A stretch of 64,000 nucleotides of DNA from the human T2T-CHM13v2.0 reference genome, Homo sapiens (GCA_009914755.4 CP086569.2:6752001-6816000), one strand, 5' to 3'. Counted from the stretch's first letter, positions 30,165 to 40,620 are shown. A program made the numbers and translations. The notes: generated by a model from the sequence alone, not told the origin.

Positions 30165-33100
30165 CTTTAAGTTCTAGGGTACATGTGCACAAAGTACAGG
30201 TTTGTTACATATGTATACATGTGCAATGATGGTGTGTTGCACCTGTCAACTCGACATTTACATTAGGTTTATCTCCTATTGCTATCCATCTCCCCCTCCC
30301 CCCACCCGATGACAGACCCCAGTGTGTGATGTTCTCCACCCTGTGTCCAAGTGTTCTTATTGTTGAATTCCCATGTATGAGTGAGAACATGTGGTGTTTG
30401 GTTTTCTATCCTTGCAATAGTTTGCTCACAATGATGCTTTCCAGCTTCACCCATGTCCCTACAAAGGACATGATCTCATCCTCTTTTATGGCTGCATAGT
30501 ATTCCATGATGGATATGTGCCACATTTTCTTAATCCAGAATATCGTTGATGGATATTTGGGTTGGTTCCAGGTCTTTGTTATTGTGAATAGTGCCACAAT
30601 AAACATATGTGTGCATGTGTCTTTACAGCAGCATGATTTATAATCCTTCGGGTATATACACAGTAATGGGATCACTGGGTCAAATGGTATTTCTAGTTCT
30701 AGATCCTTGAGGAATCACCACACTGTCTTCCGCAATGGTTGAACTAGTTTACAGTCCCACCAACAGTGTCAAAGTGTTCCTATTTCTCCATATCCTCTCC
30801 AGCACCTGCTGTTCCCTGACTTTTTAGTGATTGCCATTCTAACTGGTGTGAGATGCTATCTCATTGTGGTTTTGATTTGCATTTCTCTGATGGCCAGTGA
30901 CGATGAGCATTTTTTCATGTGTTTATTGGCTGCATAAATGTCTTCTTTTGAGAAGTGTCTGTTCAGATCCTTTGCCCACTTTTTGATGGGGTTGTTTGAT
31001 TTTTTTCTAGTAAATTTGTTTAAGTTCTTTATAGATTCTGGATATTAGCTGTTTGTCAGATGGGTAGATTGTAAAAATTTTCTCCCATTTTGTAGGTTGT
31101 CTGTTCACTCTGATGGTAGTTTCTTTTGCCATGCAGAAGCTCTTTAGTTTAATTAGATCCCATTTGTTAATGTTGGCTTTTGTTGCCATTGCTTTTGGTG
31201 TTTTATACATGAAGTACTCGCCCATGCCTGTGTCCTGAATGGTAATGCCTAGGTTTTCTTCTAGGGTTTTTGTGGTTTTAGGACTAACATTTAAGTCTTT
31301 AATCCATCTTGAATTAATTTTTGTATAAGGTGTAAGGAAGGGATCTAGTTTCAGCTTCCTACATATTGTTAGCCAGTTTTCCCAGCACCATTTGTTAAAT
31401 AGGGAATCCTTTCCCCATTTCTTGTTTTTGTCAGGTTTGTCAAAGATCAGATGGTGGTAGATGTGTGGTATTATTTCCGAGGGCTCTGTTCTGTTCCATT
31501 GGTCTATATCTCTGTTTTGGTACCAGTACCATGCTGTTTTGGTTACTGTAACCTTGTAGTATCATTTGAACTCAGGTAGTGTGATGCCTCCAGCTTTGTT
31601 CTTTTGGCTTAGGGTTGTCTTGGCAGTGCGGGCTCTTTTTTGTTTCCATATGAACTTTAAAGTAGTTTTTTCCAATTCTGTGAAGAAAGTCATTGGTAGC
31701 TTGATGGGGATGGCATTGAATCTATAAATTACCTTGGACAGTATGGCCATTTTCATGATATTGATTCTTCCTATCCATGAGCATGGAATGTTCTTCCCTT
31801 TGTTTGTGTCCTCTTTCATTTCATTGACCTCACCTTGAAGACGTCCTTCACATCCCTTGTAAATTGGATTTGTAGGTTTTTTATTCTCTTTGAAGCAATT
31901 GTGAATGGGAGTTCACTCATGATTTGGCTCTCTGTTTGTCTGTTATTGATGTATGGGAATGCTTGTGACTTTTGCACATTGATTTTTTATCCTGAGACTT
32001 TGCTGAAGTTGCTTACCTGCTTGAGGAGATTTTGGGATGAGATGATGGGGTTTCCTAAATATACAATCATGTTATCTGCAACAAGGACAATTTGACTTCC
32101 TCTTTTCCTAATTGAATACCCTTTATTTCTTTCCCCTGCCTGATTGACCTGGCCAGAACTTCCAACACTATATTGAATAGGAGTGGTGAAAGAGGGCATC
32201 CCTGTCTTGTGCCAGTTTTCAAAGGGAGTGCTTCCAGTTTTTTTCCCACTCAGTATGATATTGGCTGTGGGATTGTCATAAATAGCTCTGATTATTTTGA
32301 GATATGTCCCATCAATACATAGTTTATTTAGAGTTTTTAGCAAGAAGAGTGCTGAATTATGTCAAAGGCCTTTTCTGCATCTCTTAAGATAATCATGTGG
32401 TTTTTGTCTTTGGTTCTGTTTATGTGATGGATTACGTTTATTGATTTGCATATGTTGAACCAGTGTTGTATCCCAGGGAAGAAGCCAACTTAATTGTGGT
32501 GGATCAGCTTTTTTGATGTGATGTTGGATTCGGTTTGCCAGTATTTTATTGAGAATTTTTGCATCGATGTTCAGGGATATTGGTCAAAAATTGCCTTTTT
32601 TTGTTGTGTCTCTGTCAGGTTTTGGTATCAAGATGATGCTGGCCTCATAAATGAGTTAGGGAGGATTCCTTCTTTTTCCATTGATTGGAATAGTTTCAGG
32701 AGGAATGGTACCAGTTCCTCTTTGTACCTCTGGAAGAATTCTCCTCTGAATCCATCTGGTCCTGGAGTTTTTTTGGTTGGTAGTCTATTAATCATTGCCT
32801 CAATTTCAGAGCCTATTATTTGTCTATTCAGGGATTCAACTTCTTCTTGGATTAGTCTTGCAAGGGTGTATGTGTCCCGGAATTTATCCGTTTCTTTTTA
32901 TTTTCTAGTTTATTTGCATAGAGCTGTTCATAGTATTCTCTGATGTAGTTTGTATTTCTGTGGGATCAGTAGTAATATCCCCTTTATCATTTTTTATAGT
33001 GTCTATTTGACTCTTCTTTATTAGTCTTCCTAGTGGTCTATCAATTTTGTTGATTGTTTTCAAAAAACCACCTGCTGGATTCATTGATTTTTTTTTGAAG

Positions 33101-34919
33101 GGTTTTTTGTGTCTCTCTCTCCTTCAGTTCTGCTCTGATATTAGTTATTTCTTGCCTTCTGCTAGCTTTTGAATGTGTTTGCTCTTGCTTCTCTAGGTCT
33201 TTTACTTGTGATGTTGGGGTGTCAATTTTAGATCTTTTCTGCTTTCTCTTGTGGGCATTTAGTGCTATAAATTTCCCTCTAAACACTGCTTTAAATGTGT
33301 CCCAGAGATTCTGGTATGTTGTGTCTTTGTTCTCATTGGTTTCAAAGAACATCTTTATTTCTGCCTTCATTTCATTATGTACCCAGCAGTCACTCAGGAG
33401 CAGGTTGTTCACTTTCCATGTAGTTGTGTGGTTTTGAATGAGTTTCTTAATCCTGAGTTCTAATTTGATTACACTGTGGTCTGAGAGACAGTTGATTGTG
33501 ATTTCTGTTCTTTTACATTTGCTGAGGAGTGCTTTACTTCCAACTATGTGGTCAATTTTGGAATAAGTGTGATGTGGTGGTGAGAAGAATGTATGTTCTG
33601 TTGATTTGGAGTGCAGATTTCTGTAGATGTCTATTCGGTCTGCTTGGTGCAGAGCTGAGTTCAATTCCTGATATCCTTGTTAACTTTCTGTCTCATTGAT
33701 CTGTCTAATGTTGACAGTGGGGTGTCAAAGTCTCCCATTGTTATTGTGTGGGAGCCTAAGTCTCTTTGTAGGTCTCTAATGACTTGCTTTATGAATCGGG
33801 GTGTTCCTGTATTGGGTGCATATATATTTAGGATAGTAAATTCTTGTTGAATTGATCCCTTTACCATTATGTAATGGCCTTCTTTGTCTCTTTTGATCTT
33901 TGTTGGTTTAAAGTCTGTTTTATCAGAGACTAGGATGCAACCCTGCTTTTTTTTTTTGTTTTCCATTTGCTAGGTAGATCTTCCTCCAACCCTTTATTTT
34001 GAGCCTGTGTGTGTCACTGCACGTGAGATGGGTTTCCTGAATACAGCACACTGATGGGTCTTAACTCTTTATCCAGTTTGCCTGTCTGTGTCTTTTAATT
34101 GGAGCATTTAGTCCACTTACCTTTAAGATTAATATTGTTATGTGTGAATTTGATCCTGTCATTATGATGTTAGCTGGTTATTTTGCTCATTAGTTGATGT
34201 AGTTTCTTCCCAGCATCAATGGTCTTTACCATTTGGCATGTTTTTGCAGTGGCTCGTACCGGTTGTTTCTTTCCATGTTTAGTGCTTCCTTCAGGAGCTC
34301 CTTTAGGGCAGGCCTGGTGGTGACAAAATCTCCCAGCATTTTTTTGTCTGTAAAGGCTTTTATTTCTCTTTCATTTATGAAGCTTAGTTTGGCTGGATAT
34401 GAAATTTTGGGGTGAAAATTCTTTTAAGAATATTGAATATTGGCCCCCACTCTCTTCTGGCTTGTAGAGTTTCTGCCAAGAGATCCACTGTTAGTCTGAT
34501 GGGCTTCCCTTTGTGGGTAACTGACCTTTCTCTCTGGCAGTCCTTAACATGTTTTCCTTCATTTCAACTTTGGTGAATCTGACAGTTATGTGTCTTGGAG
34601 TTGCTCTTCTTGAGGAGTATCTTTGTGGTGTTCTCTGTATTTCCTGAATTTGAATGTTGGCCTGCCTTGCTAGATTGGGGAAGTTCTTCTGGATAATATC
34701 TTGAACAGTGTTTTCCAACTTGGTTCCATTCTCATCATCACTTTTAGTTACACCAATCAGATGTAGATATGGTCTTTTCACATAGTCCCATATTTCTTGG
34801 AGGCTTTGTTCATTTCTTTTTACTCTTTTTTCTCTAAACTTCTTGCTTCATTTCATTCATTTGATCTTCAGTCACTGATACGCTTTCTTCCACTTGATCA
34901 AATTGGCTATTGAAATTTG
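30165..34919 (-). mobile_element. L1 (LINE-1) element, 5'-truncated within ORF1, ORFs degenerate
   Basis: The L1 3' UTR end 'cctgtactttgtgcacatgtaccctagaacttaaagtataataaaa' appears in reverse complement at 30165-30215. ORF2 fragments on the minus strand include 33041-33664 and 33661-33966 (EN and linker), 31987-32343 (RT with a mutated YxDD box read as 'LVADNMIVY') and 31007-31225. An ORF1 fragment lies at 34491-34781. Confidence 0.95.
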
Positions 34920-35962
34920 TCCATGTGGAGGGGGCTGCCAAGATGGCTGAATAGGAACAGCTCTGCTCTACAGCTCCCAGTGTGAGCAACGCAGAAGATG
35001 GGTGATTTCTGCATTTCCATCTGAGGTACCAGGTTCATCTCACTAGGGAGTGCCAGACAGCGGGCGCAGGACAGTGGGTGCAGCTCACCATGCGTGAGCT
35101 AAAGCAGGGTGAGGCATTGCCTCACTCAGGAAGCACACGGGGCCAGGGAGTTCCCTTTCCTAGTCAAAGAAAGGGGTGACAGATGGCACCTGGAAAATCG
35201 GATCACTCCCACCCTAATACTGCGCTTTTCTGATGGGCTTAAAAAACGGCGCACCAGGAGATTATATCCTGCACATGGCTCAGAGGGTCCTACACCCACG
35301 GAGTCTCACTGATTGCTAGCACAGCAGTCTGAGATCAAACTGCAAGGTGGCAGTGAGGCTGGGGGAGGGGTGCCCGCCATTGCCCAGGCTTGCGTAGGTA
35401 AACTAAGCAGCCGGGAAGCTCAAACTGGGTGGAGCCCACCACAGCTCAAGGAGGCCTGCCTGCCTCTGTAGGCTCCACCTCTGGGGACAGGGCACAGAAA
35501 AACAAAAAGACATCAGTAACCTCTGCAGACTTACATGTCCCTGTCTGACAGCTTTGAAGAGAGCAGTGGTTCTCCCAGCACGCAGCTGGAGATCTGAGAA
35601 GGGGCAGACTGCCTCCTCAAGTGGGTCCCTGACCCCTGACCCCCAAGCAGCCTAACTGGGAGGCACCCCCCAGTAGGGGCAGACTGACACCTCACATGGC
35701 CAGGTACTCCTCTGAGACAAAACTTCCAGAGGAATGATCAGACAGCAGCATTCGCAGTTCACAAAAATCCGCTGTTCTGCAGCCACCACTGCTGATACCC
35801 AGGCAAACAGGGTCTGGAGTGGGTCTCTAGCAAACTCCAACAGACCTGCAGCTGAGGGTCCTGTCGGTTAGAAGGAAAACTAACAAACAGAAAGGACATC
35901 CACACCAAAAACCCATCTGTACATCACCATCATCAAAGACCAAAAGTAGATAAAATCACAAA

Positions 35963-40382: not shown

Positions 40383-40579
40383 ACAATGAGAACACATGGA
40401 CACAGGAAGGGGAACATCACACTCTGGGGACTGTTGTGGGGTAGGGGTAGTGGGGAAGGATAGCATTAGAAGATATACCTAATGCTAGATGACGAGTTAA
40501 TGGGTGCGGCACACCAGCATGGCACATGTATACATATGTAACTAACCTGCACATTGTGCACATGTACCCTAAAACTTAA

Positions 40580-40620
40580 AGTATAATAACAATAATAATA
40601 ATAATAATAATAATAATAAA
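40580..40620. repeat. (AAT)n microsatellite forming the L1 poly-A tail
   Basis: 'aataataataataataataataataataaaag'. Confidence 0.9.

What the first reader, a model, noticed from the sequence alone, without database searches (positions are those of the whole stretch)
30165..40620. Head-to-head L1 pair forming a 4.7-kb quasi-palindrome around position 34920
A 5'-truncated minus-strand L1 (30165-34919) abuts a full-length plus-strand L1 whose 5' UTR nucleotide 1 is at 34920. No spacer separates them. Each element has its own 3' tail, at 30165 and 40620, so this is not a single twin-priming event. The homologous ORF segments differ enough to indicate two independent insertions from different subfamilies. 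Examples are '[36 protein letters not shown]' versus '[36 protein letters not shown]'. About 4.7 kb of inverted homology with essentially zero spacer could form a hairpin or cruciform. It is a substrate for inversion or deletion by inverted-repeat recombination. The exact placement of the second 5' end at the truncation point of the first is notable.
Basis: seen in the sequence. Interest (0 to 1): 0.55.

Follow-up and report, generated by a model that had tools for sequence, protein, structure and literature searches.

The report
Two abutting inverted L1 insertions
Two LINE-1 retrotransposon copies of different ages (an L1PA5 and a full-length L1PA3) lie head to head where the tail of an older Alu should be; this looks like an ordinary result of repeated insertion, and it is not a true palindrome because 1.3 kb of unpaired sequence separates arms that are only 90% alike.

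Summary
The two L1s are real and do abut. A 5'-truncated minus-strand L1 (M, 30149-34926) meets a full-length plus-strand L1 (P, 34927-40621) with no filler.

The "zero-spacer 4.7-kb quasi-palindrome" is not there. M stops inside ORF1, so base 34926 pairs with 36270. The homologous arms are therefore separated by 1,343 nt, which is P's 5'UTR plus the first 306 nt of its ORF1. The arms are 90.2% identical, the longest perfect run is 73 bp, and P lacks 486 bp of ORF2.

Published ORF2p consensus sequences type M as L1PA5 (ancestral coiled-coil form), P as L1PA3 with the 129-bp 5'UTR element retained, and a third element in the window (T) as L1PA2-like. Amino-acid decay from each element's own consensus is 12.1% for M and 7.5% for P (p = 2e-4). 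This fits two separate insertions roughly 10 Myr apart.

Together the pair sits where the tail of an older, resident minus-strand AluJ should be. P has no target-site duplication, and its poly(A) meets the last base of the Alu body. The junction was therefore probably made when P integrated, perhaps with loss of target DNA that may have included M's 5' part.

This is ordinary repeat biology of low interest. The one unusual reading that remains is "dual priming", at about 5%.

The parts
30136..30148 (.). Left copy of a TSD-like repeat, ACTGATGGTTTCT. It is the candidate target-site duplication of the resident AluJ and lies within an ancient L1M-like ORF2 remnant.
   Evidence: Resembles ACTGACTTTCT at 40886-40896. 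It is not significant as a local alignment on its own. Joining the left flank to the flank right of the AluJ restores an in-frame ancient L1 ORF2 reading, residues about 453-486.
30149..30156 (-). Short T-rich stretch TTGTTATT. It is what remains of M's poly(A) and/or the AluJ tail, read on the plus strand.
   Evidence: Read directly from the sequence.
30157..34926 (-). M: a 5'-truncated L1PA5 of the ancestral coiled-coil type. It runs from within ORF1 through ORF2 and the 3'UTR and is non-coding (10 stop codons, about 17 private indels).
   Evidence: tblastn shows colinear ORF1 and ORF2 matches. Subfamily typing gives L1PA5 80/98, L1PA4:L1PA5 0:9 and L1PA5:L1PA6 13:4. The coiled-coil peptide matches the ancestral-L1PA5 sequences.
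34926..34927 (.). Head-to-head junction: M's 5' truncation point meets nucleotide 1 of P. There is no filler and at most 1 nt of microhomology.
34927..40621 (+). P: a full-length L1PA3. The 5'UTR is 34927-35963, the ORF1 ATG is at 35964, ORF2 runs about 37042-40379, and the (AAT)n-A tail is 40590-40621. It is non-coding.
   Evidence: Its 5' end aligns with control element T. Typing gives L1PA3 80/94, L1PA2:L1PA3 1:7 and L1PA3:L1PA4 11:2. Both L1PA3 PCR primers from PMC12432230 match it exactly.
34927..36269 (+). Unpaired spacer of the inverted repeat, 1,343 nt: P's 5'UTR plus the first 306 nt of its ORF1. M has no counterpart to this segment.
35711..35835 (+). The roughly 126-129-bp 5'UTR segment present in P and absent from T, at the position of the ZNF93-binding element lost within the L1PA3 subfamily.
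   Evidence: Gap in the P-versus-T alignment. Interpretation follows PMC7110667.
38903..38904 (+). Breakpoint of P's internal 486-bp deletion (ORF2 residues 622-782), with 3-nt AGG microhomology.
36270..40598 (+). Right arm of the inverted repeat: the part of P that is homologous to M.
   Evidence: blastn 89-90% identity. Overall 90.2% identity, longest perfect run 73 bp.
40622..40883 (-). Resident AluJ, minus orientation. The body is complete to its 3' end (GA-ACAGGGTC...) but has no T-run. P's tail abuts it directly.
   Evidence: Read from the sequence.
40886..40896 (.). Right copy of the TSD-like repeat, ACTGACTTTCT, next to the AluJ 5' end.
   Evidence: The evidence is weak.

Best explanation
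The locus records three successive retrotransposition events at one A/T-rich spot. I also judge it structurally inert as an inverted repeat.

(1) An AluJ inserted, in minus orientation, into an ancient L1M remnant.

(2) About 20-25 Myr ago an L1PA5 (M) inserted by ordinary target-primed reverse transcription, in the same orientation as the Alu. It was primed on the T-rich run formed by the Alu tail, so its 3' end now lies within 8 nt of the candidate left target-site duplication of the Alu.

(3) About 10-15 Myr ago an early, full-length L1PA3 (P) integrated in the opposite orientation between M and the Alu body. That event was atypical. It left no target-site duplication, its poly(A) meets the last base of the Alu body, and its nucleotide 1 is ligated to M's ORF1.

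The simplest reading is an L1 integration with loss of target DNA. The lost DNA would include the rest of the Alu tail and M's right-hand duplication, and possibly M's own 5' part. On that reading M's 'truncation point' may simply be the deletion breakpoint.

Steps shown: element identities, orientations, subfamilies, relative decay, absence of duplications, and the geometry of the repeat. Steps inferred: the order of events (from subfamily age), the Alu-tail target, and the target-site deletion.

The result is an inverted repeat with arms of 4.3-4.8 kb, 90% identity and a 1.34-kb spacer, which I judge a poor substrate for cruciform extrusion or homologous inversion.
For: Geometry of the repeat:
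- blastn of P against the window shows inverted homology only between 36297-40598 and 34899-30149, at 89-90% identity.
- The innermost ungapped arm pair is 34839-34913 with 36283-36357. Codon register extends this to 34926 with 36270.

Subfamilies:
- Using the ORF2p consensus sequences for L1PA1-7 from PMC7449397 S1 Data, M scores 80/98 for L1PA5, P 80/94 for L1PA3, and T 90/101 for L1PA1/2.
- The pairwise contrasts all point the same way.
- P matches the L1PA3-selective primers of PMC12432230 with 0 mismatches.
- M carries the ancestral-L1PA5 coiled coil, with DQVEE...DQMNEMK.

Relative age:
- Residue mismatch to each element's own consensus is T 3.7%, P 7.5% and M 12.1%. M against P gives p = 2.4e-4.
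- In-frame stop codons number 10 in M and 6 in P. Private indels number about 17 and 9.
- P-private ORF2 changes look neutral (31% at third codon positions). M-private changes include a synonymous excess, as expected if part of them are subfamily differences.
- Dating context: the L1PA7-L1PA3 families emerged 30-10 Myr ago, with the L1PA5 peak about 25 Myr ago (PMC7449397). L1PA5 was active in the human-rhesus ancestor, and the 129-bp deletion arose in L1PA3 in the great-ape ancestor (PMC7110667).

No exchange between the arms:
- L1PA3 and L1PA5 character states are not arranged in tracts.

Target site:
- P's tail abuts an AluJ body that is complete to its 3' end but has no T-run.
- The nearest T-rich stretch is on the far side of M, next to a TSD-like motif that recurs beside the Alu 5' end.
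- Joining the two outer flanks restores an in-frame ancient L1 ORF2 reading. All the best-scoring joins lie on one offset.

Target-site duplications:
- None was found for P, for M or for the whole block. The same test recovers the 9-bp duplication of control element T, with 65 of 2000 shuffles reaching its score.
Against: - The AluJ target-site duplication is weak: two 5-nt blocks with an indel, not significant alone. The ancient-L1 reading across the join has E of about 1. The 'Alu tail' target is therefore a reasonable reconstruction, not a demonstration.
- P's priming site is not canonical. The bottom strand ends ...CCCTGTTC-3', not in T's. This needs either an atypical endonuclease site or a pre-existing break.
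- Greater decay of M does not by itself prove earlier insertion at this locus. A copy of an old, already decayed L1PA5 mobilised later would look the same.
- No orthologous empty or half-filled site could be examined.
Confidence: 0.78

Rival explanations
1. Dual priming. A single integration event in which two different L1 RNAs were reverse-transcribed from the two 3' ends of one staggered or blunt break. M would be primed canonically from the T-run on the top strand and P from the opposite strand. The two cDNAs would then be joined head to head by end joining.
For: - The architecture is what the speculative dual-priming model of Meyer et al. 2010 predicts: two tails facing outwards and an internal junction without microhomology (PMC2837659).
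- The junction has no filler.
- There is no duplication between the elements or around P alone.
- P's non-T priming site would be natural for a 'second' primer.
Against: - The arms belong to non-adjacent subfamilies, ancestral L1PA5 and L1PA3, whose activity peaks are about 10 Myr apart.
- M is significantly more decayed than P. Dual priming would therefore require trans-mobilisation of an old, defective L1PA5 transcript, which established knowledge says is rare because of L1 cis-preference.
- No duplication flanks the composite.
Confidence: 0.05
2. Two ordinary insertions, each originally with target-site duplications, lay some distance apart and were later brought together by an unrelated deletion or inversion with end joining. 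One breakpoint happened to fall at P's first base.
For: - Neither element has duplications now.
- Deletions are common in old repeat-rich DNA, and P itself carries a 486-bp microhomology-associated deletion.
Against: - It requires a breakpoint exactly at P's nucleotide 1. P starts at the same base as control T.
- It does not explain why P's tail abuts the Alu body with no duplication and no T-run on that side.
- No arm-to-arm exchange tracts of the kind a homologous inversion would leave were seen.
Confidence: 0.1
3. A single inverted duplication, or palindromic amplification, of one L1.
For: Only the 4.3-kb inverted homology itself.
Against: - The arms are only 90.2% identical.
- They carry different subfamily-diagnostic residues along their whole length.
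- One arm is full length while the other is truncated, and each has its own tail.
Confidence: 0.01
4. Twin priming of one L1 RNA, giving the classical 5'-inverted L1.
For: The head-to-head orientation of two L1 segments.
Against: - Twin priming gives one poly(A) tail and two non-overlapping segments of a single RNA, flanked by duplications.
- Here both segments contain the 3' end and overlap by 4.3 kb.
- They differ in subfamily and no flanking duplication exists.
Confidence: 0.01

Closest known systems
Clustered L1/Alu insertions into the A/T-rich tail of a resident retroelement (ordinary TPRT hotspot use)
   Same: M has the same orientation as the AluJ. Its 3' end lies within 8 nt of the Alu's candidate left duplication. 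This is the arrangement expected when the T-run of an Alu tail serves as the endonuclease site and primer.
   Different: M's own target-site duplication can no longer be seen, because P now occupies the place where its right-hand copy should be.
L1 insertion-associated target-site deletion (described in cell culture by Gilbert et al. 2002 and Symer et al. 2002, and in genomes by Han et al. 2005; cited from my own knowledge)
   Same: P keeps a poly(A) tail, lacks any target-site duplication, and is joined at its 5' end to DNA that need not have been adjacent to the priming site.
   Different: The pre-insertion sequence is unknown, so the deletion is inferred rather than measured. The 3' junction does not show a canonical TTTT/A site. 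P is full length.
Endonuclease-independent (non-classical) L1 insertion, Sen et al. 2007 (PMC1920257)
   Same: No duplication, an atypical target site, and probable loss of target DNA.
   Different: The published loci were selected for 3' truncation and absence of a poly(A) tail, and most are severely 5'-truncated. P has an intact 3' end, a 32-nt tail and a complete 5' end.
Dual priming, a hypothetical mechanism of Meyer et al. 2010 (PMC2837659)
   Same: Two tails facing outwards and an internal junction without microhomology.
   Different: The two cDNAs would have to come from RNAs of subfamilies separated by about 10 Myr. No duplication flanks the pair.
Fragile inverted Alu repeats and quasi-palindromes (Lobachev laboratory; PMC10164571)
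   Same: Two inverted copies of a retroelement in cis.
   Different: The fragile cases have spacers of about 12-20 bp and high identity. Here the spacer is 1,343 nt, identity is 90%, and one arm has a 486-bp deletion. Only the single-stranded-DNA fold-back route, which tolerates long spacers and homology down to 75%, remains conceivable.

Membership tests
L1PA5 subfamily (element M) | Subfamily-diagnostic ORF2p residues | tested here: met
   80/98 matches to the L1PA5 consensus, the best of L1PA1-7. L1PA4:L1PA5 is 0:9 and L1PA5:L1PA6 is 13:4.
L1PA5 subfamily (element M) | ORF1p coiled-coil sequence type | tested here: met
   TWTNFNSQFDQVEESVSVTEDQMNEMKQE compared with ancestral-L1PA5 ACTSFSSRFDQVEERVSVIEDQMNEMKQEE. 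The DQVEE motif is common in the ancestral-L1PA5 and L1PA6 files and rare in modern L1PA5, L1PA4 and L1PA3.
L1PA5 subfamily (element M) | Nucleotide match to the Dfam/Repbase L1PA5 consensus, including the 3'UTR | not testable with these tools
   No repeat consensus library was available.
L1PA3 subfamily (element P) | Subfamily-diagnostic ORF2p residues | tested here: met
   80/94, the best of L1PA1-7. L1PA2:L1PA3 is 1:7 and L1PA3:L1PA4 is 11:2. Two C-terminal residues (1261 and 1268) are L1PA4/5-like.
L1PA3 subfamily (element P) | Match to L1PA3-selective primer sites (ORF1 end and ORF2 start) | tested here: met
   0 mismatches to both primers of pair 2 from PMC12432230.
Full-length L1 | 5' end at the canonical first nucleotide, and a 3' end with an A-rich tail | tested here: met
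   P starts at the same base as control T, plus one G. Its tail is 40590-40621. It is not intact: it has a 486-bp deletion, stops and frameshifts.
Classical TPRT insertion (element P) | Flanking target-site duplication | tested here: not met
   The best local match of the 5' flank to the 3' flank is 6 nt, and 722 of 2000 shuffles do as well. The control T duplication is recovered.
Classical TPRT insertion (element P) | T-rich primer (TTTT/A) at the 3' junction | tested here: inconclusive
   The tail abuts GAACAGGG of the Alu body. Target A's cannot be told apart from tail A's, but an Alu 3' end should be preceded by T's on this strand, not A's.
Twin-priming product | One poly(A) tail; two non-overlapping segments of one RNA; flanking duplications | tested here: not met
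   Two tails, 4.3 kb of overlap, different subfamilies and no duplication.
Dual-priming product (hypothetical) | Two outward-facing tails with a direct internal cDNA-cDNA junction | tested here: met
Dual-priming product (hypothetical) | Both halves inserted at the same time, and a duplication flanking the composite | tested here: not met
   Different subfamilies and unequal decay, p = 2.4e-4. No duplication around the block. Simultaneity cannot be strictly excluded without orthologues.
Non-classical (endonuclease-independent) L1 insertion | 3' truncation or absence of a poly(A) tail, plus no duplication and a non-consensus site | tested here: not met
   P's 3' end and tail are intact. Only the absence of a duplication and the odd target site fit. 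Criteria are from PMC1920257.
L1 insertion-associated target deletion | Pre-insertion allele containing sequence that is absent from the filled allele | not testable with these tools
   No primate genome collection was available. Exact-ORF look-ups and one protein search found nothing.
Cruciform-prone quasi-palindrome | Short spacer (tens of bp or fewer) between the arms | tested here: not met
   The spacer is 1,343 nt. Thresholds are from PMC10164571.
Cruciform-prone quasi-palindrome | High arm identity, especially near the centre | tested here: not met
   90.2% identity, longest perfect run 73 bp, and a 486-bp indel. The innermost 75 nt are 83% complementary.

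The most novel reading that the evidence does not exclude
The pair could be a natural product of 'dual priming': two separate L1 RNAs reverse-transcribed from the two ends of a single break at the Alu tail and joined head to head. One of the RNAs would be an old L1PA5 transcript mobilised in trans. That would be a full-sized example of a mechanism that has so far only been postulated (PMC2837659).
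Probability: 0.05. Interest if true: 0.45.

Novelty: already known. Interest (0 to 1): 0.1.

Why it matters
It matters little beyond this locus.

The case shows that two inverted L1s that abut are not the same thing as a palindrome. When one partner is full length and the other is truncated, the homologous arms lie more than a kilobase apart.

P is also a candidate example of a full-length L1 that integrated without a target-site duplication, possibly deleting part of a neighbouring element.

The locus would be of moderate interest to retrotransposon specialists only if orthologous primate loci showed that both L1s arrived together (dual priming).

Tried and rejected
Led nowhere:
- Orthologous or pre-insertion alleles. 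Exact look-ups of the junction-spanning ORF (34834-34989, minus strand) and of a right-flank ORF (40877-41086) found nothing. A protein homology search with the flank ORF also found nothing. The collections evidently do not hold such primate intergenic ORFs.
- CpG retention as a clock. It is uninformative because CpG sites themselves turn over between subfamilies: 9 of M's 14 CpGs are absent from both P and T.
- Three-way private-substitution counts alone. They could not separate M's decay from subfamily differences. Typing against published consensus sequences resolved this.
- Old L1 in the left flank. tblastn at E of 1e-3 or better found nothing. Only a permissive search on a reconstructed join gave weak colinear hits.

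Considered and rejected:
- Target-site duplications for P, for M and for the whole block. None was significant.
- Gene conversion or homologous inversion between the arms. No tracts were seen.
- The AluJ as a 3' transduction of P. No downstream poly(A) follows it, and the flanks belong to one ancient L1.
- The AluJ as a 5' transduction of M. This would need a transcript starting exactly at Alu nucleotide 1 and reading 6 kb, which is less parsimonious than a resident Alu.
- The whole block as a 5' transduction of P from another locus. Its left edge coincides with M's canonical 3' end.

Full report
**What is in the sequence**

The window is primate-type DNA rich in L1 and Alu. blastn of 34900-40650 against the whole window gives two inverted alignments: 36297-38903 with 34899-32320 (89.3% identity), and 38924-40598 with 31827-30149 (90.4%). 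It also gives a near-full-length match to a third, minus-strand L1 at 54401-60464, which I call T. An independent repeat search finds the same inverted arms. The innermost pair is 34839-34913 with 36283-36357. tblastn with T's ORF1 and ORF2 shows that the left element (M) is a colinear minus-strand L1 running from within ORF1 to the end of ORF2. The right element (P) is a plus-strand L1 with ORF1 and ORF2, but lacking ORF2 residues 622-782. That gap is a 486-bp deletion with a 3-nt AGG microhomology.

**The junction**

P's first bases, GGAGGGGGCTGCCAAGATGG from 34927, align with the 5' end of T, which is bounded by a clean AAACATCTT target-site duplication. P starts at the same nucleotide plus one extra G.

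M's last bases read, in reverse complement, ACA TGG ACA AAT TTC AAT AGC CAA TTT GAT CAA GTG, which translates as TWTNFNSQFDQV. This diverges from the P and T sequence at that spot. However, it matches the ancestral-L1PA5 coiled coil ACTSFSSRFDQVEERVSVIEDQMNEMKQEE in the supplementary alignments of PMC7449397.

M therefore runs to 34926 and P starts at 34927, with no filler and at most one base of microhomology. Each element has its own 3' end. M's is at 30157-30165 (TTATTATAC on the plus strand) with 8 T-rich bases beyond it. P's is GTATAATAA followed by a (AAT)n-AAAA tail ending at 40621.

**Why it is not a zero-spacer palindrome**

M is truncated in ORF1 while P is full length, so base 34926 corresponds to base 36270 of P. 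The 1,343 nt between them have no partner in M. They comprise P's 1,037-nt 5'UTR and the first 306 nt of its ORF1, whose ATG is at 35964.

The arms are 4,778 and about 4,330 nt long. They are 90.2% identical over aligned bases, contain no perfect run longer than 73 bp, and differ by the 486-bp deletion.

PMC10164571 summarises yeast assays on inverted Alu repeats in double-stranded DNA:
- Widening the spacer from 12 to 20 bp reduces recombination about 40-fold.
- Widening it from 12 to 100 bp reduces recombination 300-fold.
- A 1.5-kb spacer lowers the rearrangement rate 31-fold.
- Divergence lowers instability exponentially.

Only fold-back annealing inside long single-stranded regions tolerates such spacers and divergence. 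From my own knowledge, efficient mammalian homologous recombination needs roughly 130-230 bp or more of uninterrupted identity, and that is absent here. If the dating below is right, the repeat has also persisted for roughly 10 Myr. The inference of hairpin or cruciform formation is therefore not supported.

**Subfamilies and relative age**

A three-way alignment gives 298 M-private, 105 P-private and 104 T-private substitutions in 4,309 shared columns. P-private ORF2 changes look neutral, with 31% at third codon positions. M-private changes show a third-position excess, as expected if part of them are differences between subfamilies.

To separate decay from subfamily difference, I took the ORF2p consensus sequences of L1PA1-7 from S1 Data of PMC7449397. 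At the 101 positions where those consensus sequences differ:
- T matches L1PA1/2 best (90/101).
- P matches L1PA3 best (80/94).
- M matches L1PA5 best (80/98).

The pairwise contrasts agree:
- M: L1PA4 against L1PA5 is 0:9, and L1PA5 against L1PA6 is 13:4.
- P: L1PA2 against L1PA3 is 1:7, and L1PA3 against L1PA4 is 11:2.

P also matches both L1PA3-selective primers of PMC12432230 exactly. It retains a roughly 126-129-bp 5'UTR segment that T lacks, at the position of the ZNF93-site deletion that arose within L1PA3 in the great-ape ancestor (PMC7110667). P is therefore an early L1PA3.

Residue mismatch to each element's own consensus is 3.7% for T, 7.5% for P and 12.1% for M. M against P gives Fisher p = 2.4e-4. 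Stop codons (10 against 6) and private indels (about 17 against 9) point the same way. PMC7449397 places the L1PA5 peak at about 25 Myr ago and the L1PA7-L1PA3 series at 30-10 Myr ago.

L1PA3 and L1PA5 character states do not occur in tracts, so there is no sign of gene conversion or of a past homologous inversion between the arms. An inverted duplication and twin priming are both excluded.

**The target site**

Immediately after P's tail comes GA-ACAGGGTCTTGCTCTATTGCCTGGGCTGGAGTGCAG.... This is the reverse complement of an Alu 3' end. It is complete to its last bases but has no T-run where its tail should be.

The nearest T-rich stretch lies 10.5 kb to the left, just outside M (30149-30156). 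It is preceded by ACTGATGGTTTCT. The Alu's 5' end is followed by ACTGACTTTCT. This putative Alu target-site duplication is not significant on its own.

The reconstruction has some further, weak support. Joining the left flank to the flank right of the Alu gives a reading frame that follows an ancient L1 ORF2 (residues about 453-486) across the join. A colinear weaker hit lies upstream. In a grid of 572 alternative joins, the top eight scores all lie on the same offset as the hypothesised join.

I therefore infer that an AluJ was resident in an ancient L1M, and that both young L1s now occupy the position of its tail.

**How the pair most likely arose**

M has the orientation and position expected for ordinary target-primed reverse transcription. 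It would have been primed on the Alu's T-run, placing the new element between the Alu body and its tail in the same orientation as the Alu.

P is atypical. The test that recovers T's 9-bp duplication finds nothing for P, for M or for the whole block. P's tail is joined to a 3' end (...CCCTGTTC) that is not T-rich.

The most economical account is that P integrated about 10 Myr after M with loss of target DNA. At minimum this removed M's right-hand duplication and the remaining Alu tail. It may also have removed M's 5' part. In that case the coincidence of P's nucleotide 1 with M's 'truncation point' is no coincidence, because P's integration made that end.

P does not meet the published criteria for endonuclease-independent insertion, which require 3' truncation or lack of a tail (PMC1920257). 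It resembles L1 insertion-associated deletion, but the deletion cannot be measured without the pre-insertion allele.

**Rivals**

The architecture is also what the speculative 'dual priming' model predicts: two RNAs primed on the two strands of one break, tails facing outwards, and an internal junction without microhomology (PMC2837659).

Against this, the two halves belong to non-adjacent subfamilies with unequal decay. No duplication flanks the composite. The model would also need trans-mobilisation of an old L1PA5 transcript. Greater decay alone cannot exclude that last possibility, because a late copy of an old element inherits its decay. I give dual priming about 5%.

A later deletion or inversion that happened to end at P's first base gets about 10%.

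**What I could not do**

No primate genome collection was available. Exact look-ups of two locus-specific ORFs and one protein homology search returned nothing. Orthologous loci in gibbon or macaque would settle both the order of events and whether M was once longer.

**Verdict**

This is a real head-to-head L1PA5/L1PA3 pair with an exact junction, but it is not a quasi-palindrome. It is ordinary repeat history at an Alu-tail hotspot, with one mildly unusual feature: a full-length L1 without a target-site duplication. Interest is low.

Noticed in passing
window 54401-60464 (minus strand): A third full-length L1 (T), L1PA2-like, with 90/101 diagnostic ORF2p residues matching L1PA1/2. It has a clean 9-bp target-site duplication AAACATCTT and lacks the 129-bp 5'UTR element. 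ORF2 is nearly intact, with one stop and one frameshift. ORF1 is open from about residue 50. I used it as an internal control.
   Followed up: partly
window 38903/38904: P carries a 486-bp internal deletion removing ORF2 residues 622-782, part of the reverse-transcriptase region. The breakpoints share a 3-nt AGG microhomology. It could date from reverse transcription or from later.
   Followed up: partly
window 35711-35835: P retains a roughly 126-129-bp 5'UTR segment that T lacks, at the position of the ZNF93-binding element deleted within L1PA3 in the great-ape ancestor. This makes P an early L1PA3.
   Followed up: partly
window about 40960-41100 (minus strand): About 80 bp right of the AluJ lies the 3' end of another, older minus-strand L1. 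It reads ...TTTTATTTTAGATTTGAGTGGTACAGGTACAGGTTTG... in reverse complement, preceded by a T/A-rich tail.
   Followed up: no
window about 29740-30148 and 40897-40945: Weak, colinear, minus-strand similarity to L1 ORF2 residues about 453-576 (E of 0.055 and 1.1). It suggests an ancient L1M-type remnant that was interrupted by the AluJ and then by the two young L1s.
   Followed up: partly
window 44160-44744 (plus) and 62783-63309 (plus): Old, highly diverged L1 ORF2 C-terminal and 3'-end fragments, 34-57% amino-acid identity to T's ORF2. The region is generally dense in L1.
   Followed up: no
In both elements they begin ...QEL-NSALHQ..., so the first residue is L, not M as quoted.
   Followed up: yes
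window 34834-34989 (minus strand): A chance 51-codon ORF with a TTG start spans the M/P junction: antisense P 5'UTR fused to M ORF1 coiled-coil codons. No identical protein is on record.
   Followed up: yes
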